From assembly GCA_964016885.1 (NCBI GenBank), contig OZ024743.1, positions 315,518,001-315,582,000 on the forward strand: a stretch of DNA of 64,000 nt, given 5' to 3'. The position numbers and the translations under genes were made by a program. Below the pieces are notes generated by a model that was given only the letters and a program-made list of their open reading frames with translations, was not told where the DNA came from and did not search any database. Positions 2,662-63,530 of this stretch are shown here, piece by piece (the stretch's first letter is position 1; each line of letters begins with the position of its first letter). The DNA is from Eledone cirrhosa (taxonomy: Eukaryota).

Positions 2662-2740
<79 letters not shown>

Positions 2741-2743
<3 letters not shown>

Positions 2744-3186
2744 TATGTATACGTACATACATATATGTATACAGACGTACAGTAGTATGTATATATATAT
2801 ATATATATATACATACATGCACACATATATACAGTACGTACGGATTTACCGAAAATTTATTATAATGCTCGGTGTGTTTGTAAACAAACATCTCGAATTA
2901 AGCCGTACAGTGTCTAGCAACCATCGTTGCTCATTTGTTCAACCCTGACAAAGGAACGCTGTACTAGTTTCAAGCTTATTAGCTATCGTCAGCAACGTAT
3001 ACCTTCCTGCCAGATGATTGAACGTCTGAAAGTATATACTTTCCTTATGCATATTAACGGCTGAGCAGCTTAATTTGCATATCGAGTGAGTTAGTCGGCG
3101 GGGTTACCGAAAACGATAAACGGAAAAAATGAAACGAAATTTTTCATTTCTCACTCTTAGTACGGCTGTTACTTAAATATAAGTAT
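2741..3186 (-). mobile_element. ~465-bp retrozyme-like non-autonomous element (family B), HHR at 2956-2998 (-)
   Basis: Homologous to 13178-13749, 16770-17137 and 55545-55925. Minus strand has CTGACGA TAGCT-AATA-AGCTT GAAA CTAG TA. Confidence 0.8.
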
Positions 3187-4031: not shown

Positions 4032-5563
<1,532 letters not shown>

Positions 5564-12506: not shown

Positions 12507-13177
12507 ACACACACATCAGTGTGTGGTGCATTTACTTCTACAATCTCTAAAATGTGTAGAACTCAGTAATTGTAAAGTAAGCATTTATTGAGCAAATTGA
12601 AGATCAATATAGTAACTAGAAGACCCACCTTAGAGGTAGGTTTCTAGACTTGGGATCATAGTACATCAATAACAACATCAACATTTTGAAAAAATATATA
12701 TCAATAACGCTGCAAAATGTTTTCCAAATCCGTTAGATTTTGCCTTAAAAACCCTTCTAACGCCGAGGAAGGATACACTCCATCAAATGAGCAATGTTTG
12801 ATAATGTACAGACAAATCTAATAGTTAATATATATATACGACTTTAATACAACGTGTTGATTGCTTATTTCATTCTCATATGCCCACACCTGACTTTCTG
12901 TATATATATATATATGTGTGTGTATGCGTGTGTGAGAGAGAGAGAGAGAGAGAGTGTGTGTGTGTGTTATATTAAGTGTTTCCAAAGGAAATGTAAAGGA
13001 AAGGAGAGTGCTCTATGTCGGCTACAGAGCTATTTACTTATATAATAAACAACATAAAACAATTATGAACGATTTCAGACGGCTGTGTCGCGCTCGTCTG
13101 GCTTCGTGAAACATTTGGTAAATGGAATAATTGTCTTATGTTGTTTATTACATAACTATATATATATATATATATAT

Positions 13178-13749
13178 AAGTTGTAATATAATGAAACGAA
13201 ATTTCATTTCTCACTCTTATTACGGCACTTACTTAAATGTAAGTATGTATGTATACGTACATACATATATGTATACAGACGTACAGTAGCATGCATATAT
13301 ATATATATATATATACATATATATACATACAGGTACACATATATATATGTACGTATCAGTTTAGCGAACGTTTATTATAACGCCCGCTTTGTCCGTTTGT
13401 AAACAAGCGGACAGCCTGATTTATGCCATACGGTGTTAAGGCAACCACGTCACCTTTTTGTTCAACACTGACACAGGAACGATGTACTAGTTTCAAGCTT
13501 CTTAGCTATCATCAGCACCGTATACCCTTCTGCCAGATAGTTGAACGTTCGAAAGTATATACTTTCCTTATGAAAATTAACGGCTGAGCAGCCTAATTTG
13601 CATATCGAGTGAGTTCAGTCGGCCAGGCGTACCGAAAACGATAAGTTGTAATATAATGAAACGAAATTTCATTTCTCACTCTTAGTACGGCACTTACTTA
13701 AATGTAAGTATGTATGTATACGTACATACATATATGTATACAGACGTAC
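13178..13749 (-). mobile_element. Family B retrozyme-like element, 465-bp unit with ~107-bp direct terminal repeat; HHR at 13479-13521 (-)
   Basis: aagttgtaatataatgaaacg... at 13178 and 13643. Minus strand has ACGGTG CTGATGA TAGCT-AAGA-AGCTT GAAA CTAG TA CATCGT. Flanked by (TA)n. Confidence 0.85.
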
Positions 13750-14111
13750 ATATATATATCTAGTGTGTCGAAAGAGAGCAGTCGACAGAGCAGCTGTCTA
13801 GACACAGGCACGAACGATCGTAACATCATTTGCTACATCTATTTATCGTTGTTGATTTACTTCAAAACTGATTTCGTTAGTTTAGAAAGGTGTCATGTTA
13901 CAAACCTGGCAACTTATTTGGGGTTATTATAAAGGTTTCTATAAACAATGATTCATATACACAGATTAGATATATATACCTACATATATACATACATACA
14001 TACACACATACATACATACATGCATATATGTGTATGTGTGTGTATATATATATATATATGTATGTATGTATATATATATATGTGTGTGTGTGTGTGTATG
14101 TTTGTATATAC

Positions 14112-16738: not shown

Positions 16739-16769
16739 ACTCAGAAATGATATATATGTAAGAGTCAGA

Positions 16770-17133
16770 AATGAAATTTCGTTTAATTCTTATCCATTTA
16801 TCGTTTTTGGTATACCCGGCCGACTAACTCACTCGATATACAAATTAGGCTGCTCAGCCGTTAATATGCATAAGGAGCGTTCAATCATCTGACAGAAAGG
16901 TATACGATACTGACGATAGCTAATAAGCTTGAAACTAGTACATCGTTGCTGTGTCAGTGTTGAACAAAAGGGCGACGATGTTTGCCAACGCACTGTACGG
17001 CGTAATTTGGGCTGTTTGTTTAAAACAAACCGAACATTATAATGAATGTTCGGTAAACCCATACGTACATATATATGTGTGCCTGTATGTATACATATAC
17101 ATACTACTGTGCGTCTGTATGTACGTATACATA

Positions 17134-17137
<4 letters not shown>
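16770..17137 (+). mobile_element. Family B retrozyme-like copy; HHR at 16904-16946 (+)
   Basis: ACGATA CTGACGA TAGCT-AATA-AGCTT GAAA CTAG TA CATCGT. Confidence 0.85.
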
Positions 17138-27970: not shown

Positions 27971-29254
27971 CTTAAGGTTTGTTGGTTCACCACTGGATAG
28001 AACTGGTCATTCCGTATGGTCAATCCTGGTGTAATATTGTGAAGAGTACTCAACGCAGTGCAGTTCACCCATCTTCGTTTGTGTAGTTGGTGGTGCGAAT
28101 ACGGAGTTAATTATAAATGAAATAAGAGGAGGCTGGACTGGTGTAAATCCTTGAAAGGTTTATTATACTATGATCATTTCCATGACTGGGTTCCATATGA
28201 ATCCGGTGATATCATCAGGTATTGGAATATAACAAAGGAATATGTAAAAAGCCATGCGTCCGAAATACCATGGGTCCGAGAAACCAGAGACAGAGAGGGC
28301 GGCTGACCAACTAGCTTCACAGCCAGCCGCCCTCAAAGTGTTGGCAACCGAAAACTACCAGTGAATATCTGGTAAGGGGGCGCAGGCCTATCATGTACTA
28401 CCACCACTTCGTCAAAGAAAAAGGGGAAGAAAGAAAGAAAGGGAGAAGAAGTGTAGTGTAAGGGTCAAACTACATTCATGTTAGAAAATGCCGCGAAAAA
28501 AATGCTACCCAAAGAATCTATAGTGGGTGTCTGTATGGTCTAATGTGTGAACCGAAGATTGAAACGCTAAACTTATGTTGCGAGTTATAGGATGAAATAA
28601 TTTAAATTAAAAATATTATATTGCAAAATGGTAAATTGAAAAATATTTAACTCTTATCGAGATAAATTTAAAAAAACAACAAAAACAATTGTTCATATAA
28701 GACTCTCTCCGTAAGTTCGTTAAATAAATAAATCTCGCTACCTCTATTTTTGAATTTACCATTTTGCAATATAATATTTTTAATTTAATTTATTTCATCC
28801 TATAACTCCAATCTTCGGTTCACACATTAGACCATACAGACACCCACTATAGATTCTTTGGGTGGCATTTTTTTCGCAGCATTTTCTAACATGAATGTAG
28901 TTTGACCCTTACACTACACTTCTTCTCCCTTTCTTTCTTTCTTCCCCTTCTTCTTTGACGGAGTGGTGGTAGTAAATGATAAGCCTGCGCCCCCTTACCA
29001 GATATTCACTGGTAGTTTTCGGTTGCCAACACTTTGAGGGCGGCTGGCTGTGAAGCTAGTTGGTCAGCCGCTCTCTCTGTCTCTGGTTTCTTGGACCCAT
29101 GGTTTTTCGGACGCATGGCTTTTTACATATTCCTTTGTTATATTCCAATACCTGATGATATCACCGGATTCATATGGAACCCAGTCATGGAAATGATCAT
29201 AGTATAATAAACCTTTCAAGGATTTACACCAGTCCAGCCTCCTGTTATTTCATT

Positions 29255-29255
<1 letters not shown>
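27970..29255. mobile_element. Family I fold-back element (~510-bp arms) with HHRs at -28165-28222 and +29148-29205
   Basis: ATAC CTGATGA TATCACCGGATTCA..TGGAACCCAGTCATG GAAA TGATCA TA GTAT. Arms 28115-28645 and 28748-29255 are near-perfect inverted copies. Confidence 0.85.
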
Positions 29256-29346
<91 letters not shown>

Positions 29347-32659: not shown

Positions 32660-33660
32660 TCTCAACTTTAATAATATAACATACACACTTAAACATTTAA
32701 AGTACGGATTGAATCGATAAATTATTAATTAAACATTTAATCAAATTAATTAAACATTAGATAAATTCTTCAACTTAGCTTTGTCCATTTTATTAGTATC
32801 TGTTATTGGCTGTTATTAGTATTCATTCACGCTATATTTTTTTTCTTCGCCTCTTCCCTCAAATTACGCTATTCTCTCTCACTAAAATATACTCAGGTTT
32901 CTCTCTTTCTTTCTTTCGTTTTTCTCTTATTTTTTTTCCCTTATTCCAACGGCTTAATTTAAATATACTGTTTCTAATAATATATATTCTCTAATAATAA
33001 TATAATATAACACACATTTAAACATTTAAACTACGGATTGAATTGATAAATTATTAATTAAACATTAGTAATTAAACATTAGATAAATTCTTCAACTTAA
33101 CTTTATTATTGCTTTATCCATCTTTTTTATTAGTTTTTTTTATTAGTATCTGTTATTAGTTGTTATTATTGAATTTATCCATCTTACGGTATTCATCCAC
33201 ACTATATTTATCTCTTCGCCTCTTCTCTCAAAATAACGCTATTCTCTCTCACTAAAATATACTCAGGTTTCTCTTTCTTTCTTTCCTTCATTTTTTCTTT
33301 TCTTTTTTCCCTATTCCAACGGCTTAATTTAAATATACTGTTTTAAACCTTTCCAACACTAATTTGCATAATAAACCAACAATAAATCTAATAACTCCAC
33401 TACCCAGGAGATTCCAACCAGAATGGTTGCATTTGTTAAGGGTATGTCAATATTTATTTATAAAACTAACCTATTTTATATTTTATTTGATGAAAGCACA
33501 CCATAGTTTGCTCTGGTGGCCCTTAAAATATGTATAATGAAATAAATATGGTTTTATAAATATAGTTTCCATTTGTTAATATATTGTATATTTACTCCAA
33601 TAATTTGTTGAGTGCTTTATATCAGTTATAAAATATTTTGCTTGTTGTATCCCAACAAAT
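32660..33660 (+). mobile_element. AT-rich PLE 3' UTR remnant with ~335-bp tandem duplication and degenerate HHR at ~33481-33545
   Basis: 32660-32990 is repeated at 32995-33345. TTTTAT TTGATGA ..CACCA..TGGTG.. AAAA TATGTA TA ATGAAA. Confidence 0.5.
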
Positions 33661-47206: not shown

Positions 47207-49532
47207 AGATCAAAAGATGGTTAAAAGAGTTCCAAGTATTTTATTATGCGCATTTCAAAAACAAATATCATCATGGGATGATATTTGCGTTCTCATCAGA
47301 TAAAATAGGGAGACATGATATGAAACTTAAAAAACACTTGAGAGCAGTGTATTGTTAAATCAACATATGAAAAATAAAGTAAGATAGATATATGAGATTG
47401 GGAAAAACAGGAGGGGGGGGGGTAAGAAAAGGTAAGGAAGAGGAAGAAAGAAAATAAAGTATGACGGGGGAGGAGTATAAGAAGGAAGGATGAGAGAGGA
47501 GGTGAAATGAGTGATAGAGAGAGAGAAATAGCCTTTACAACTGAGAAAACATTGTCTCACAGAGAGAAATTAAAAATCCGTTGAAAGATAATAGATAATT
47601 TTAAAAGATTTTGAAATTAAAAGTTAATGAGGTTTATGAATGGTGATGTTTATGATTAAAGAAAAAGGAATTAAGAATAGTATTTATTTAAGGGTTTAAT
47701 AATATGTGCGAAAAAAATAATTTATTAATATGTATTATTAAAATAAAAATATTAAGGATATAATGTGAAAGAAGGAGAGATGGAATGAATTATGAACTTA
47801 GAGGAATTAGTTAGGGTTTAAGTTTGTTTTTTATGTTTTGTAATATGTAAAAGTAAATAATAGGTTTAATACGATTACCGAAGGAGAGAAGAAAGAAGAA
47901 AATTTAAGGAGGAAAACATATCTAACGTCAAAAAGTATATATGTTTACAAAATGTTCTAATGGTAATATTATTATATATTTAAAAAAATATAGTTTCTCT
48001 GGCCAACAATATAAGGAAAAATGGAAAATGCTATAGTGAGTAATAATATGAATTAAGAAGTAATTGAGAAGTAAAAGTTACAGATTAACGATTAGAAATT
48101 AAAAAAGAAAAAAGGAAGAAAGGAAAAAGGATAAAAAGAAGAAAGATGGGGGACCTCTAACGACATAGATTGAGTAAATTGTATAATATAATATACAGAA
48201 ATAAGGTAGAAAGATGGGTATATTTGTAAAAGATATAAAAGCCTTTGAGAAAAGAAGATTTTAAACTAATTAGGTATTGAGATATTAGCTGTATACTTTA
48301 TGGAAAGTTCTATGGGATTTATGCAAGCAGAGCAAAAATAAATCCGTACGTCTATTTATTATAGAATTAAAATTAGATATAATGGTAAATTTCTCGGCTA
48401 AGCAGAGATTACATGTTCTGGATAGGGAAGAATTTCGCTAAGGAAAGGCGTTGCAAACCTTCCTCCAAGAGATGTTATAGTTAATATTTTTGTCTTTTAA
48501 GGACCATATGAGTTCCGAGAGTGCCGTGTTAGTTCTTTTAAGTTGGTATTTAAAAGACGATTTCTAATCATAAAATCTTGCTTTAAAGGAAGTGGAAGTG
48601 GAACCGAAATAGGTAAAGGAATTAGTACCAGTTATAATCTTACATTCATACACTAAGTTTTTATCAAGACATTGTTTATTAAGAGGACATTTAGTTCTAA
48701 CAGGGCAATTACAATTACGATTAGAGACATTAACAGAGTTATTAACAAGTGACCTAGTATTATTTATAGAATGAATTGGATTGGAGAAGTTATTTACGAT
48801 AGGAACTATAGTTTCCTGATTTAGATTGGTATTATGAACATTCGTCGTATTTAAATTTACTGAATCTAGCCTAGAGTTAACATTGACGTTGGGTTTACTA
48901 TTGCTATTATTATGACGCTCGGTTGGGTGGATATAATTTATTATTTAATATTTTATTATTGTGTTTAGAGATAATGTTAGAGATGTTGGAAGTGGGGGAA
49001 TAAGAGAATTTGATTGTATGTTTGTTAAAGATCTGGCTATAGATATACGAGGGAGGGAAGCATTTATCTAAGGCCCTAAAGAATAGTTTAGGAATATTAC
49101 TAGTAATAGATAGAGAAAAAGGAGCATTATACCAAATCATATTTTTGTATCTAGGTCTTTTATTTAAGTTATTGGAATGTTCATAATTAACAATTTTACT
49201 ATAAGTCCTTCGATGATTGGTTTCTTTACTGTATTTAAATTTATCAGGATAACCGGCTTTGGAAAGCGCATTATTATAGTAATTGGCATTAGCGTCGAAG
49301 ATAACTTTATTAGAGGATAGATTTGAGATTCTTTTTTCAATATTACTGACTATAGTATTTTTAACGTTAGTGGGGTGGTTAGATTTAAAATTAACATACT
49401 TTAGATTCTCATTGCCTTTATGGTAAGGGTAATATAGGCCAGTGTCAAGATTAAGGGATATATCCAGGAAGTTAGCTAGTTTGACGTTGTTATCAAATTC
49501 AATTTTAAGGTTATGCTGCTTATATAGATCAA

Positions 49533-52269: not shown

Positions 52270-54420
<2,151 letters not shown>

Positions 54421-55349: not shown

Positions 55350-55544
55350 TGTGTGTGTGTGTGTATGTGTGTGTGTGTGTGGGTGTGTGGGTGGGTGTGT
55401 GTGTGAGAGTGAGTGTGTGTGCGTATGTATATACATATATACATACATATGTTTGTGTTTGTATGTATGTGTCTCGTACGCGAATGAGGCTTCGGATCAT
55501 GTCAATCGATATATATATACATATATATATATAAAAAGAAAAGA

Positions 55545-55925
55545 GTGAAACGAAATTTCATTTCTCACTCTTAGTACGGCTGATACTTAAATGTAAGTAT
55601 GTAACATACATACATATATGTATACAGACGTACAGTAGTATGTATATATATATACATACATGCACACATATACATATGTACGTATGGGTTTACCGAACAT
55701 TTATTATAATGTTCGGTTTGTTTGTAAACAAACAGCCCGAATTACGCCTTTTTGTTCAACACTGACACAGGAACGATGTACTAGTTTCAAGCTTATTAGC
55801 TATCGTCATCACCGTATACCTTTCTGTCAGATGATTGAACGTTTGAAAGTATATACTTTCCTTATGCATATTAACGGCTGAGCAGCCTAATTTGCATATC
55901 GAGTGAGTTAGTCGGCCGGGCCGAA
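55545..55925 (-). mobile_element. Family B retrozyme-like copy; HHR at 55773-55815 with a core mutation
   Basis: Homologous to 13190-13630. The core reads ATGACGA. Confidence 0.8.
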
Positions 55926-55992
55926 AATGTTCCTATTTTTAACAAAAAGGTGACGATGGTTGCCGAACACTGTACAGCATAATTATATGTTT

Positions 55993-58434: not shown

Positions 58435-58886
58435 TATAGCCATGTCAGTAGGCTTGTTGAGGCTTGTTTTCATAATTGTAAACGAATCGAAGGTTATTAT
58501 TAATTATCGAAAAACTCAGATTACATTTATTGTATTCAGCCATGGAGAGCGAAATTTTCTTTTTTATTTGAATTAGGCATAGACGGCCATTTATCGCTCG
58601 TATACAGGAAACTGACTGGCCAGTCTGCTGATATGCAAATCTGGCTCATCAGTGGATCTGCTAATATGCAGATCTGACTGATCAGCCAGTCTGCTAATAT
58701 GCAAATCAGGCCGATCAGACACTGTGTATTTTTGAAAATAGCATATATTTTCACTAGCTCTGACAGTTTGGCAGGTGAACAGTGAGCTGTACTGATGAAG
58801 GGTGATACCCAGAAATATTAGTGTCTGCAGTTCTGTTCGCATGCCAACACAAGAGCAAGAATGAAGTGTTCATTCTACTGACATGG

Positions 58887-62399: not shown

Positions 62400-62907
62400 T
62401 TGTTTATATTTTTCTTGCTTTTGACATTGTTGTTGTCAGTCTTGTTGTTGCTGTTGTTGTTGTGTTGTTGCTGTTGTTGTTGTGTTACTTTGTTGCTGTT
62501 GCTGTTGTTGTTGTTACTTTGTTGTTGTTGCCTGTTGTTGATGTCGTTGTTGTTGATATTGTCACTAATGGAGTTGTAGATGATGCTGTTAACGTTATTT
62601 TTGCTGTTGTTGTTGACGTTGTTGTTGTTGATGTTGCTGTTGTTGACGTTGTTGTTGATGTTGCTGTTGTTGTTTTGTTGACGTTGTTGCCGTTATTGTT
62701 GTTGACGTTGTTATTGTTGATGTGGTTCTTGTTGATGTTGTGTTTTTTTGGTGATGTTGTTGATGATGTTGTTGCTGTTCTTGTTGATGTTGATGTTGTT
62801 CTTGTTGATGTTGTTGCTGTTCTTGTTGATGTTGCTGTTGTTGTTCGGTTGATACAATTGCTAATGTTGTAGTTGTAGATATTGCTGTTGTTGTTATTGT
62901 TATTGTT

Positions 62908-62947
<40 letters not shown>

Positions 62948-62956
62948 AGCTGCTGC

Positions 62957-62990
<34 letters not shown>

Positions 62991-63343
62991 GCTGTTGTTG
63001 TTGTTGTTGTTGTTGTTGTTTTTGTCGATGTTGCTACTGTATTGTTACAATAACAATATTACTATTGTTGTTGTTGTTACGTTTTTGCTATTGCAGTTGT
63101 TATTGTTGTTGCCACTTTATTTGTGCTGCTGTTGCTGTTGTTGTTGTTGCAGTTGCTATTGTTGATGTTATTGTTGTTGTTGCTTTTGTTGTTGATGCTG
63201 TTCTTGCTATTTATGGTGTTATTGTAGCTGTTGTTGTTGTTGTTGTTAATGATCCTATTGTTGGTGTTGTTCTTGTTATTATTTTAGCTGTTACTGTTGT
63301 TGTTCTTTTTGTTGTTTGTGGTGGTGGTGGTGGTGGTGTTGCT

Positions 63344-63382
<39 letters not shown>

Positions 63383-63530
63383 GCTGTTGTTCTTGTTACA
63401 CCTGCCATTTCTCTTGTTCCTGTTGTCGTTGCAGTTGTTACTGTTGTTGGTGTGGTTGCTATGGTTGCTGTCATTGCTGTGGATGCTGTGGTTGCTGTCA
63501 TTGCTGTTGTCGTTGTTGTTCTTGTATATT
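62400..63530. repeat. Degenerate (GTT/GCT/GAT)n trinucleotide tract, possibly the (CAA)n-rich part of an ORF1-like element on the minus strand
   Basis: Compound triplet repeat similar in composition to 52540-52890. Confidence 0.6.

What the first reader, a model, noticed from the sequence alone, without database searches (positions are those of the whole stretch)
13178..13749. 465-bp retrozyme family B: four copies with permuted ends
Seen: copies at 2741-3186, 13178-13749, 16770-17137 and 55545-55925 start at different points of one circular or tandem unit. The 13 kb copy has a ~107-bp direct terminal repeat. There is no ORF. The HHR caps a longer helix (GTTCAA/TTGAAC, CTGACA/TGTCAG), and an octamer ATTTGCAT lies nearby. 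Inferred: reverse transcription from a ~465-nt circular or tandem RNA by a PLE RT. Four copies in 64 kb implies a very high copy number.
Basis: partly seen in the sequence, partly recalled or inferred. Interest (0 to 1): 0.7.

Follow-up and report, generated by a model that had tools for sequence, protein, structure and literature searches.

The report
Self-cutting repeat pasted Penelope-style
This is one copy of a very abundant protein-less repeat that carries a predicted self-cutting RNA and a likely built-in promoter, and whose copies end at two fixed points, a pattern suggesting that Penelope-type jumping genes paste it from a circular or tandem RNA; the kind is known, and this family gives clear sites to test.

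Summary
The repeat is real. Its type I hammerhead (HHR) lies on the minus strand (core 13515-13485). An exact 16-mer of the core occurs 29,646 times in the 3.0-Gb genome (control 2).

'Permuted ends' is half right. In ribozyme sense only the 5' ends wander. The 3' ends fall at two sites about 60 nt apart (93 of 108 arrays), usually running into (TA)n. In back-to-back insertions one arm ends at each site (14 of 14 scorable pairs, 13 loci). This is the Penelope-like element (PLE) 'tail' signature. Copies run through the cleavage site and reach 7 units, so the template was likely circular or uncut tandem RNA. No copy examined was the pLTR of a coding element, and no autonomous partner was found.

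The octamer is part of a 12-bp box like the one upstream of the host's top-scoring U6/U6atac genes. A U1/U2-like TCAG and a TATA follow it, spaced alike in three HHR families: a likely internal snRNA-type promoter, as reported for newt satellite 2. Cleavage, transcription and circles are untested.

This scan noted the same family and promoter on other DNA of this genome. Verdict: new member of the non-LTR retrozymes.

The parts
13176..13750 (-). Retrozyme copy of 1.23 units (unit positions 200-465, then 1-309, counted from the cleavage site). It has one HHR, so it cannot release a unit-length RNA by double cleavage (inferred dead-end copy).
13485..13515 (-). Type I hammerhead core: CUGAUGA, stem II with a U.U pair at its base, GAAA, 2-bp stem III in a palindromic CUAG, predicted cleavage after GUA at 13485
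13460..13546 (-). Stem I and its extension helices (13546-13540 with 13466-13460; 13536-13531 with 13473-13468), predicted to hold the two ends of a cut monomer together
13593..13604 (-). 12-bp octamer-containing box, identical to the box at -78 of one host U6 gene
13556..13587 (-). TCAG (13587-13584) and TATATA (13561-13556), 26 nt apart as in host U1/U2 promoters; predicted start near 13531
13176..13240 (-). 'Tail' between 3' end site A (about 13240-13234) and site B (13178-13176), containing a predicted hairpin
13157..13177 (.). (TA)n target tract at the 3' end
13641..13750 (-). Second copy of the 110-bp terminal redundancy (first copy 13176-13285)
2740..3186 (-). Copy of about one unit; core intact (cleavage at 2962); 3' end at site A into (TA)n
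16759..17137 (+). 5'-truncated copy; 3' end at site A; octamer mutated, TATA deleted, closing pair of stem I broken
55532..55982 (-). Copy with 3' end at site B, first core base C3 changed to A, and an inverted 5' piece (55938-55982)

Best explanation
This is a copy of a non-coding hammerhead repeat of about 30,000 units whose copies end at two fixed sites in (TA)n tracts; it is likely transcribed from its own snRNA-type promoter, is predicted to cut itself into unit-length RNA that would be closed into a circle, and is likely copied into the genome by a Penelope-like element's enzyme. Steps: (1) A tandem copy is transcribed from the box-TCAG-TATA module starting about 46 nt before the cleavage site (motif shown, activity inferred; polymerase II slightly favoured because copies read through T4-T6 runs). 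(2) Two successive HHRs cut out a 420-500-nt monomer whose ends are paired by the long stem I (fold shown, cleavage inferred). (3) A host ligase closes it (by analogy with PMC7229834). (4) A PLE endonuclease/RT nicks (TA)n and starts reverse transcription inside the RNA at site A or B, often on both strands, one site per strand (ends shown, enzyme inferred). (5) The RT runs through the cleavage junction for a fraction of a unit up to 7 units, which regenerates the upstream promoter in the copy.
For: 3' ends: 63 of 73 arrays picked by chromosome order and 30 of 35 young arrays end at site A or B; 84 of these 93 run into (TA)n. Of 21 inverted pairs, 14 are A+B (13 loci), none A+A or B+B, and 7 have one arm unscorable; binomial p about 1e-4 on 13. 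The two arms differ by 0-5 of 150 nt in 11 of 13 pairs, against a median of 10-26 to other loci. The host's own near-intact PLEs end at two sites into (TA)n too, as described for PLEs. Counts on both sides of the cleavage site are nearly equal (29,646 and 30,376), and 7 of 9 loci lacking the spanning word still span the site. Structure: 96% of cells paired, a G.U to U.G double change in stem I; unit fold z = -7.8. Promoter: box at -77 to -79 in three U6 upstream regions and the top U6atac; the unit scores as high as the host genes, 1 of 500 shuffles reach it; box, TCA(G/C) at +17 and TATA at +43/44 in families B, D and E.
Against: No cleavage, transcript or circle was observed. Box-to-TATA spacing is 43-44 nt against 47-49 in host U6/U6atac, and no host gene examined has the combined layout: U1/U2, 1 RNase P and 6 U3 loci lack the box. 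The box profile was built from the four loci that have it; 5 of 6 U6atac loci and several U6 loci lack it. 5' ends do not pile up at the predicted start (2 of 70), so the start site has no genomic support. In 7 of 13 arrays of three or more units the units are no more alike than other loci, which a single-circle template does not predict unless later mutation is invoked. A published PLE uses unprocessed RNA in vitro. No autonomous partner shares the tail. Covariation rests mainly on one inherited change.
Confidence: 0.62

Rival explanations
1. Same PLE-driven element, but the template is an uncut linear multimer transcribed from tandem arrays; the hammerhead is weak or acts later, and circles play no part in copying.
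For: In vitro a PLE inserts unprocessed RNA and HHR mutants do not affect insertion (PMC11167929). Weak stems II and III resemble axolotl motifs that cut poorly as monomers. Some arrays hold dissimilar units or partly alternating variants. 18 of 73 arrays have two or more units and could be sources.
Against: Six of 13 arrays are more uniform inside than against any other locus sampled (L095, L100, L104, L106, L114, L152 excluded; e.g. 0.8 against 4.5 differences). The end-pairing helices are strongly conserved although their 5' arms lie upstream of the predicted start. Related retrozymes accumulate as circles.
Confidence: 0.27
2. The promoter-like module is not the source of transcription; the repeats are transcribed by read-through from neighbouring genes or elements, and the module is a relic or a structural RNA motif.
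For: Spacing differs from host U6 by about half a helical turn; no pile-up of 5' ends at the predicted start; the region also folds as a hairpin.
Against: The same three motifs at the same spacing in three otherwise unlike families, and a 12-of-12 match to a host U6 box.
Confidence: 0.25
3. The unit is the pLTR of an autonomous PLE, and the copies are 5'-truncated insertions of that element.
For: The ends behave exactly like PLE ends; pLTRs and retrozymes are related in frogs.
Against: Upstream of the unit lies more unit, up to 7 in tandem. Nine of 91 sequences have any PLE-protein hit and none has an ORF in pLTR position. The PLE families sampled carry their own, different 3' regions.
Confidence: 0.06
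4. A satellite spread by DNA-level recombination or slippage, with no RNA step.
For: Tandem arrays and an internal microsatellite exist.
Against: 55 of 73 arrays are single dispersed copies; 99%-identical copies lie on many chromosomes; polarised ends and complementary A+B arms are not expected from recombination.
Confidence: 0.02

Closest known systems
Metazoan non-LTR retrozymes of coral, mussel and axolotl (Cervera and de la Pena 2020, PMC7229834; passages and parts 3-4 of 6 read)
   Same: Non-coding tandem units with a type I HHR, high copy number, self-paired fold; U.U at the base of stem II and a weak palindromic stem III as in the axolotl motifs.
   Different: Unit 420-500 nt against about 170-400 there; circles were shown there and not here; in the parts read no fixed 3' ends, target site or promoter are described.
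Vertebrate non-LTR retrozymes as PLE derivatives (Li, Clavereau and Pollet 2026, bioRxiv 10.64898/2026.07.22.740005; parts 1-3 of 5 read)
   Same: Monomers, dimers and multimers; lengths 51-972 bp cover this unit; co-occurrence with PLEs.
   Different: Their link is co-occurrence and pLTR homology; here it is the insertion footprint, and no homologous pLTR was found.
Penelope-like elements: two internal RT start sites and 'tail' (Frangieh et al. 2024, PMC11167929, parts 1-2 of 4 read; Craig et al. 2021, 10.1101/2021.04.23.441226, passages read)
   Same: Two internal 3' end sites, tail on one end only, inverted 5' arms, AT-rich or (TA)n targets.
   Different: No ORF; tail about 60 nt against 30-40; ends lie 245-310 nt beyond the HHR.
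Newt satellite 2 (Coats, Zhang and Epstein 1994; paper not held, known here only from one sentence in PMC2220036)
   Same: Hammerhead repeat with an internal snRNA-type promoter.
   Different: There transcription by polymerase II was reported; here the module mixes the host's U6-type box with its U1/U2-type core, and the polymerase is unknown.

Membership tests
Non-LTR retrozyme | Type I hammerhead with conserved core in each unit | tested here: met
   (by motif and pairing; Rfam gives no hit)
Non-LTR retrozyme | Short non-coding unit, no LTR/PBS/PPT architecture | tested here: met
   longest ATG frame 54 aa; terminal repeat is unit overlap and varies between copies
Non-LTR retrozyme | Tandem arrays plus dispersed monomers, high copy number | tested here: met
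Non-LTR retrozyme | Self-cleavage of the transcript | not testable with these tools
   needs in vitro transcription
Non-LTR retrozyme | Unit-length linear and circular RNA in vivo | not testable with these tools
   no RNA holder listed
PLE-mobilised element | Two internal 3' end sites, tail on one end only | tested here: met
   93 of 108 arrays; 14 of 14 scorable pairs A+B
PLE-mobilised element | 5' truncation and inversion; microsatellite target | tested here: met
PLE-mobilised element | Autonomous partner sharing the initiation signal | tested here: inconclusive
   7 PLE 3' regions x 4 queries, no convincing terminal match; sample of PLE families incomplete
Autonomous PLE (unit as pLTR) | RT plus GIY-YIG ORF joined to the repeat | tested here: not met
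U6-type (type 3 polymerase III) promoter | Host upstream box | tested here: met
U6-type (type 3 polymerase III) promoter | Host box-to-TATA spacing (47-49 nt) | tested here: not met
   43-44 nt in four unit types
U1/U2-type snRNA promoter | TCAG core with a TATA-like word 22-28 nt downstream | tested here: inconclusive
   26-27 nt in the repeats, but the motif is short and also stands before RNase P RNA

The most novel reading that the evidence does not exclude
A self-sufficient RNA-circle replicon of the genome: each unit carries, inside the circle, a hybrid promoter built from the host's U6 box and U1/U2 core that lies upstream of its own start site and survives only because a dimeric Penelope enzyme copies one circle round and round from two fixed sites, one per target strand. 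The insertions would be a direct genomic record of rolling-circle reverse transcription of a circular RNA.
Probability: 0.35. Interest if true: 0.62.

Novelty: new member of a known kind. Interest (0 to 1): 0.42.

Why it matters
How animal retrozymes are transcribed and which enzyme copies them is proposed but not shown in the papers read. This family names exact sites to test: two reverse-transcription start points, a (TA)n target and a three-part promoter. It also shows how an element can keep a promoter that lies upstream of its start site. At about 30,000 units of 420-500 nt (roughly 0.4% of the genome by simple multiplication) with 99%-identical copies on many chromosomes, it has been recently active.

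Tried and rejected
Rfam: no family at gathering score in the window. Expression: no RNA holder listed among 23 runs; contigs laid show the family in runs labelled as other organisms but say nothing on transcription. RNA-editing scars (a lead from earlier notes): no A>G excess in 46 young units, 10 distinct A>G against 11 T>C sites. Pile-up of 5' ends at the predicted start: 2 of 70, about chance. Pile-up at the cleavage site: 1 of 9 test loci breaks within a base of it. Autonomous partner: 28 local alignments with shuffles; the best (0 of 200 shuffles) is A/T-rich and not at a terminus, so rejected. Host gene with the full hybrid promoter: not among U1, U2, U3, U6, U6atac or RNase P loci; 9 of 11 extra U6 loci fetched were not displayed because my search motif missed them. 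pLTR reading rejected. Coats 1994 is not held. PMC10886601 passages held nothing relevant. Paper searches listed no paper on a cephalopod retrozyme; subscription papers, Repbase and supplements were not seen, and the bioRxiv supplements may bear on known families.

Full report
Observation. The four copies, the 465-nt period and the 108-110-bp terminal redundancy are in the sequence. The window lies in a 3.0-Gb, (TA)n-rich animal genome; a cephalopod host is my guess from recall and was not tested. Rfam reports nothing. A motif scan finds a type I hammerhead on the minus strand at 13515-13485, and folding gives stem I with its long extension (z = -2.65). On 38 distinct copies the named structure is 96.2% paired, against 31-43% when slid, with a G.U to U.G double change in stem I. 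That covariation rests mostly on one inherited change, and the copies were chosen by the core motif. Of the four window copies, two have an intact core and stem, one has a broken closing pair, and one has C3 changed.

Copy number. An exact 16-mer across the cleavage site occurs 29,646 times (control 2). A 20-mer just downstream occurs 30,376 times (control 0). All four window copies hold the 16-mer, so the window is about six times denser than average. Copies 99% identical to the 13-kb copy lie on many contigs. Natural arrays have periods of 420-426 and 456-502. Contigs from runs labelled as other organisms hold the family too.

Ends. I mapped ends in 30 top-scoring loci and in 51 stretches taken in order along contig C1. 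In ribozyme sense, 63 of 73 unbiased and 30 of 35 young arrays end at site A (about 245-251 nt after the cleavage site in the 465 subfamily) or site B (about 308). Of these 93, 84 run into (TA)n. The 5' ends are spread over the unit. Among 21 back-to-back pairs, 14 have one arm at A and one at B (13 loci, one counted twice), none has both at the same site, and 7 have an arm that ends elsewhere or could not be scored (p about 1e-4). The two arms belong to the same sequence variant in 11 of 13 pairs compared. Craig et al. describe a tail on one end only, inverted 5' copies and (TA)n bias for PLEs (passages). Frangieh et al. show that the tail is the stretch between two internal RT start sites (parts 1-2 of 4). 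The genome holds PLEs with long open RT plus GIY-YIG frames, and several of these families also end at two sites into (TA)n.

Template. Nearly every copy spans the cleavage site: the two counts are almost equal, and 7 of 9 loci picked for lacking the spanning word span it with mutations. A cut linear monomer primed at A or B could not give this, so the template was a circle or an uncut multimer. These two are not separated here. Of 13 arrays with three or more units, 6 are more uniform inside than against the nearest other locus or nearly so, and 7 are not; some young arrays show partly alternating variants. A whole unit folds with its two ends paired (z = -7.8; circular fold). The 13-kb copy has one HHR and so cannot itself release a monomer; 18 of 73 unbiased arrays have two or more.

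Not a pLTR. Eight host PLE proteins searched against 90 loci and the window hit 9 sequences. None has an ORF joined upstream in pLTR position: in L012 the repeat interrupts an ORF, in L103 the PLE ends 1.1 kb away with its own 3' end, and in L007 the repeat sits in the (TA)n at a PLE's 3' end. No sampled PLE 3' region shares the tail convincingly.

Promoter. The octamer is part of a 12-bp box. The two top-scoring host U6 genes, the U6 cluster and the top U6atac gene have this box at -77 to -79 with TATA at about -30. Other U6 loci and 5 of 6 U6atac loci lack it, many flanked by microsatellite like retrocopies, so the training set is partly circular. The unit scores 19.5 bits, as high as the host genes; 1 of 500 shuffles reaches this, and one other place in the window does. 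Host U1 and U2 genes lack the box but have TCA(G/A)T at -56 to -58 and a TATA-like word at -28 to -35. Families B (two subfamilies), D and E, with unlike ribozymes, all have box, TCA(G/C) at +17 and TATA at +43/44. Both host rules put the start about 46 nt before the cleavage site. Against a plain U6 promoter: the spacing is 4-5 nt short, and copies read through T4-T6 runs. RNase P and U3 loci lack the box. No 5' pile-up marks the predicted start. An snRNA-type promoter in a hammerhead repeat is reported for newt satellite 2, seen here only as a citing sentence.

Comparison and verdict. The element meets every non-LTR retrozyme feature testable here. Cervera and de la Pena showed circles in coral, mussel and axolotl and proposed PLEs as the carrier; Li et al. 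support that by co-occurrence and pLTR homology. Five paper searches listed no description of this family. Earlier notes of this scan reach the same reading on other DNA of this genome; I had reached the end mapping and the U6 match before reading them (note) and do not count them as support. It is a new member of a known kind with an unusually clear mobilisation footprint and a likely internal promoter; all RNA-level steps are untested.

Noticed in passing
window 4179-4233 (-) and 47245-47299 (-): Another type I HHR family with a long stem II, ending in (TA)n about 45 nt after the cleavage site; pyrimidine-rich upstream, pLTR-like; no promoter box found.
   Followed up: partly
window 28112-29258: Inverted pair of a third HHR family (cores at 28218-28169 and 29152-29201) ending near (TA)n.
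   Followed up: no
window 58619-58825 (+): Family D: HHR preceded by three 33-bp repeats, two with a full octamer, and the same box-TCAG-TATA spacing.
   Followed up: partly
L062:1-300 and L199-L208: Family E: another abundant HHR repeat with the same promoter module and frequent inverted pairs.
   Followed up: partly
L061, L063, L064, L067, L071, L075: Several PLE families with long open frames (up to 1096 aa stop to stop), likely Neptune and Penelope/Poseidon types by recall of their motifs; some carry atypical minimal HHR-like motifs in the 3' region; L066 is an inverted pair with one arm at each end site.
   Followed up: partly
L121-L123, L193, L156-L179, L209-L215: The host's small-RNA promoters fall in two types: an octamer-like box at -78 (U6, U6atac) and TCAG at about -57 (U1, U2, apparently RNase P), all with a TATA-like word near -30.
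   Followed up: partly
L007:1364-1990: A family B copy abuts the (TA)n 3' end of a PLE; nested insertion or template switch.
   Followed up: no
window 33359-33370 (-): A lone perfect match to the 12-bp box with no HHR found nearby, beside a 350-390-bp duplicated segment.
   Followed up: partly
window 52542-52850 and 62427-63507: Long imperfect CAA/TTG triplet repeats, possibly glutamine-rich coding exons.
   Followed up: no
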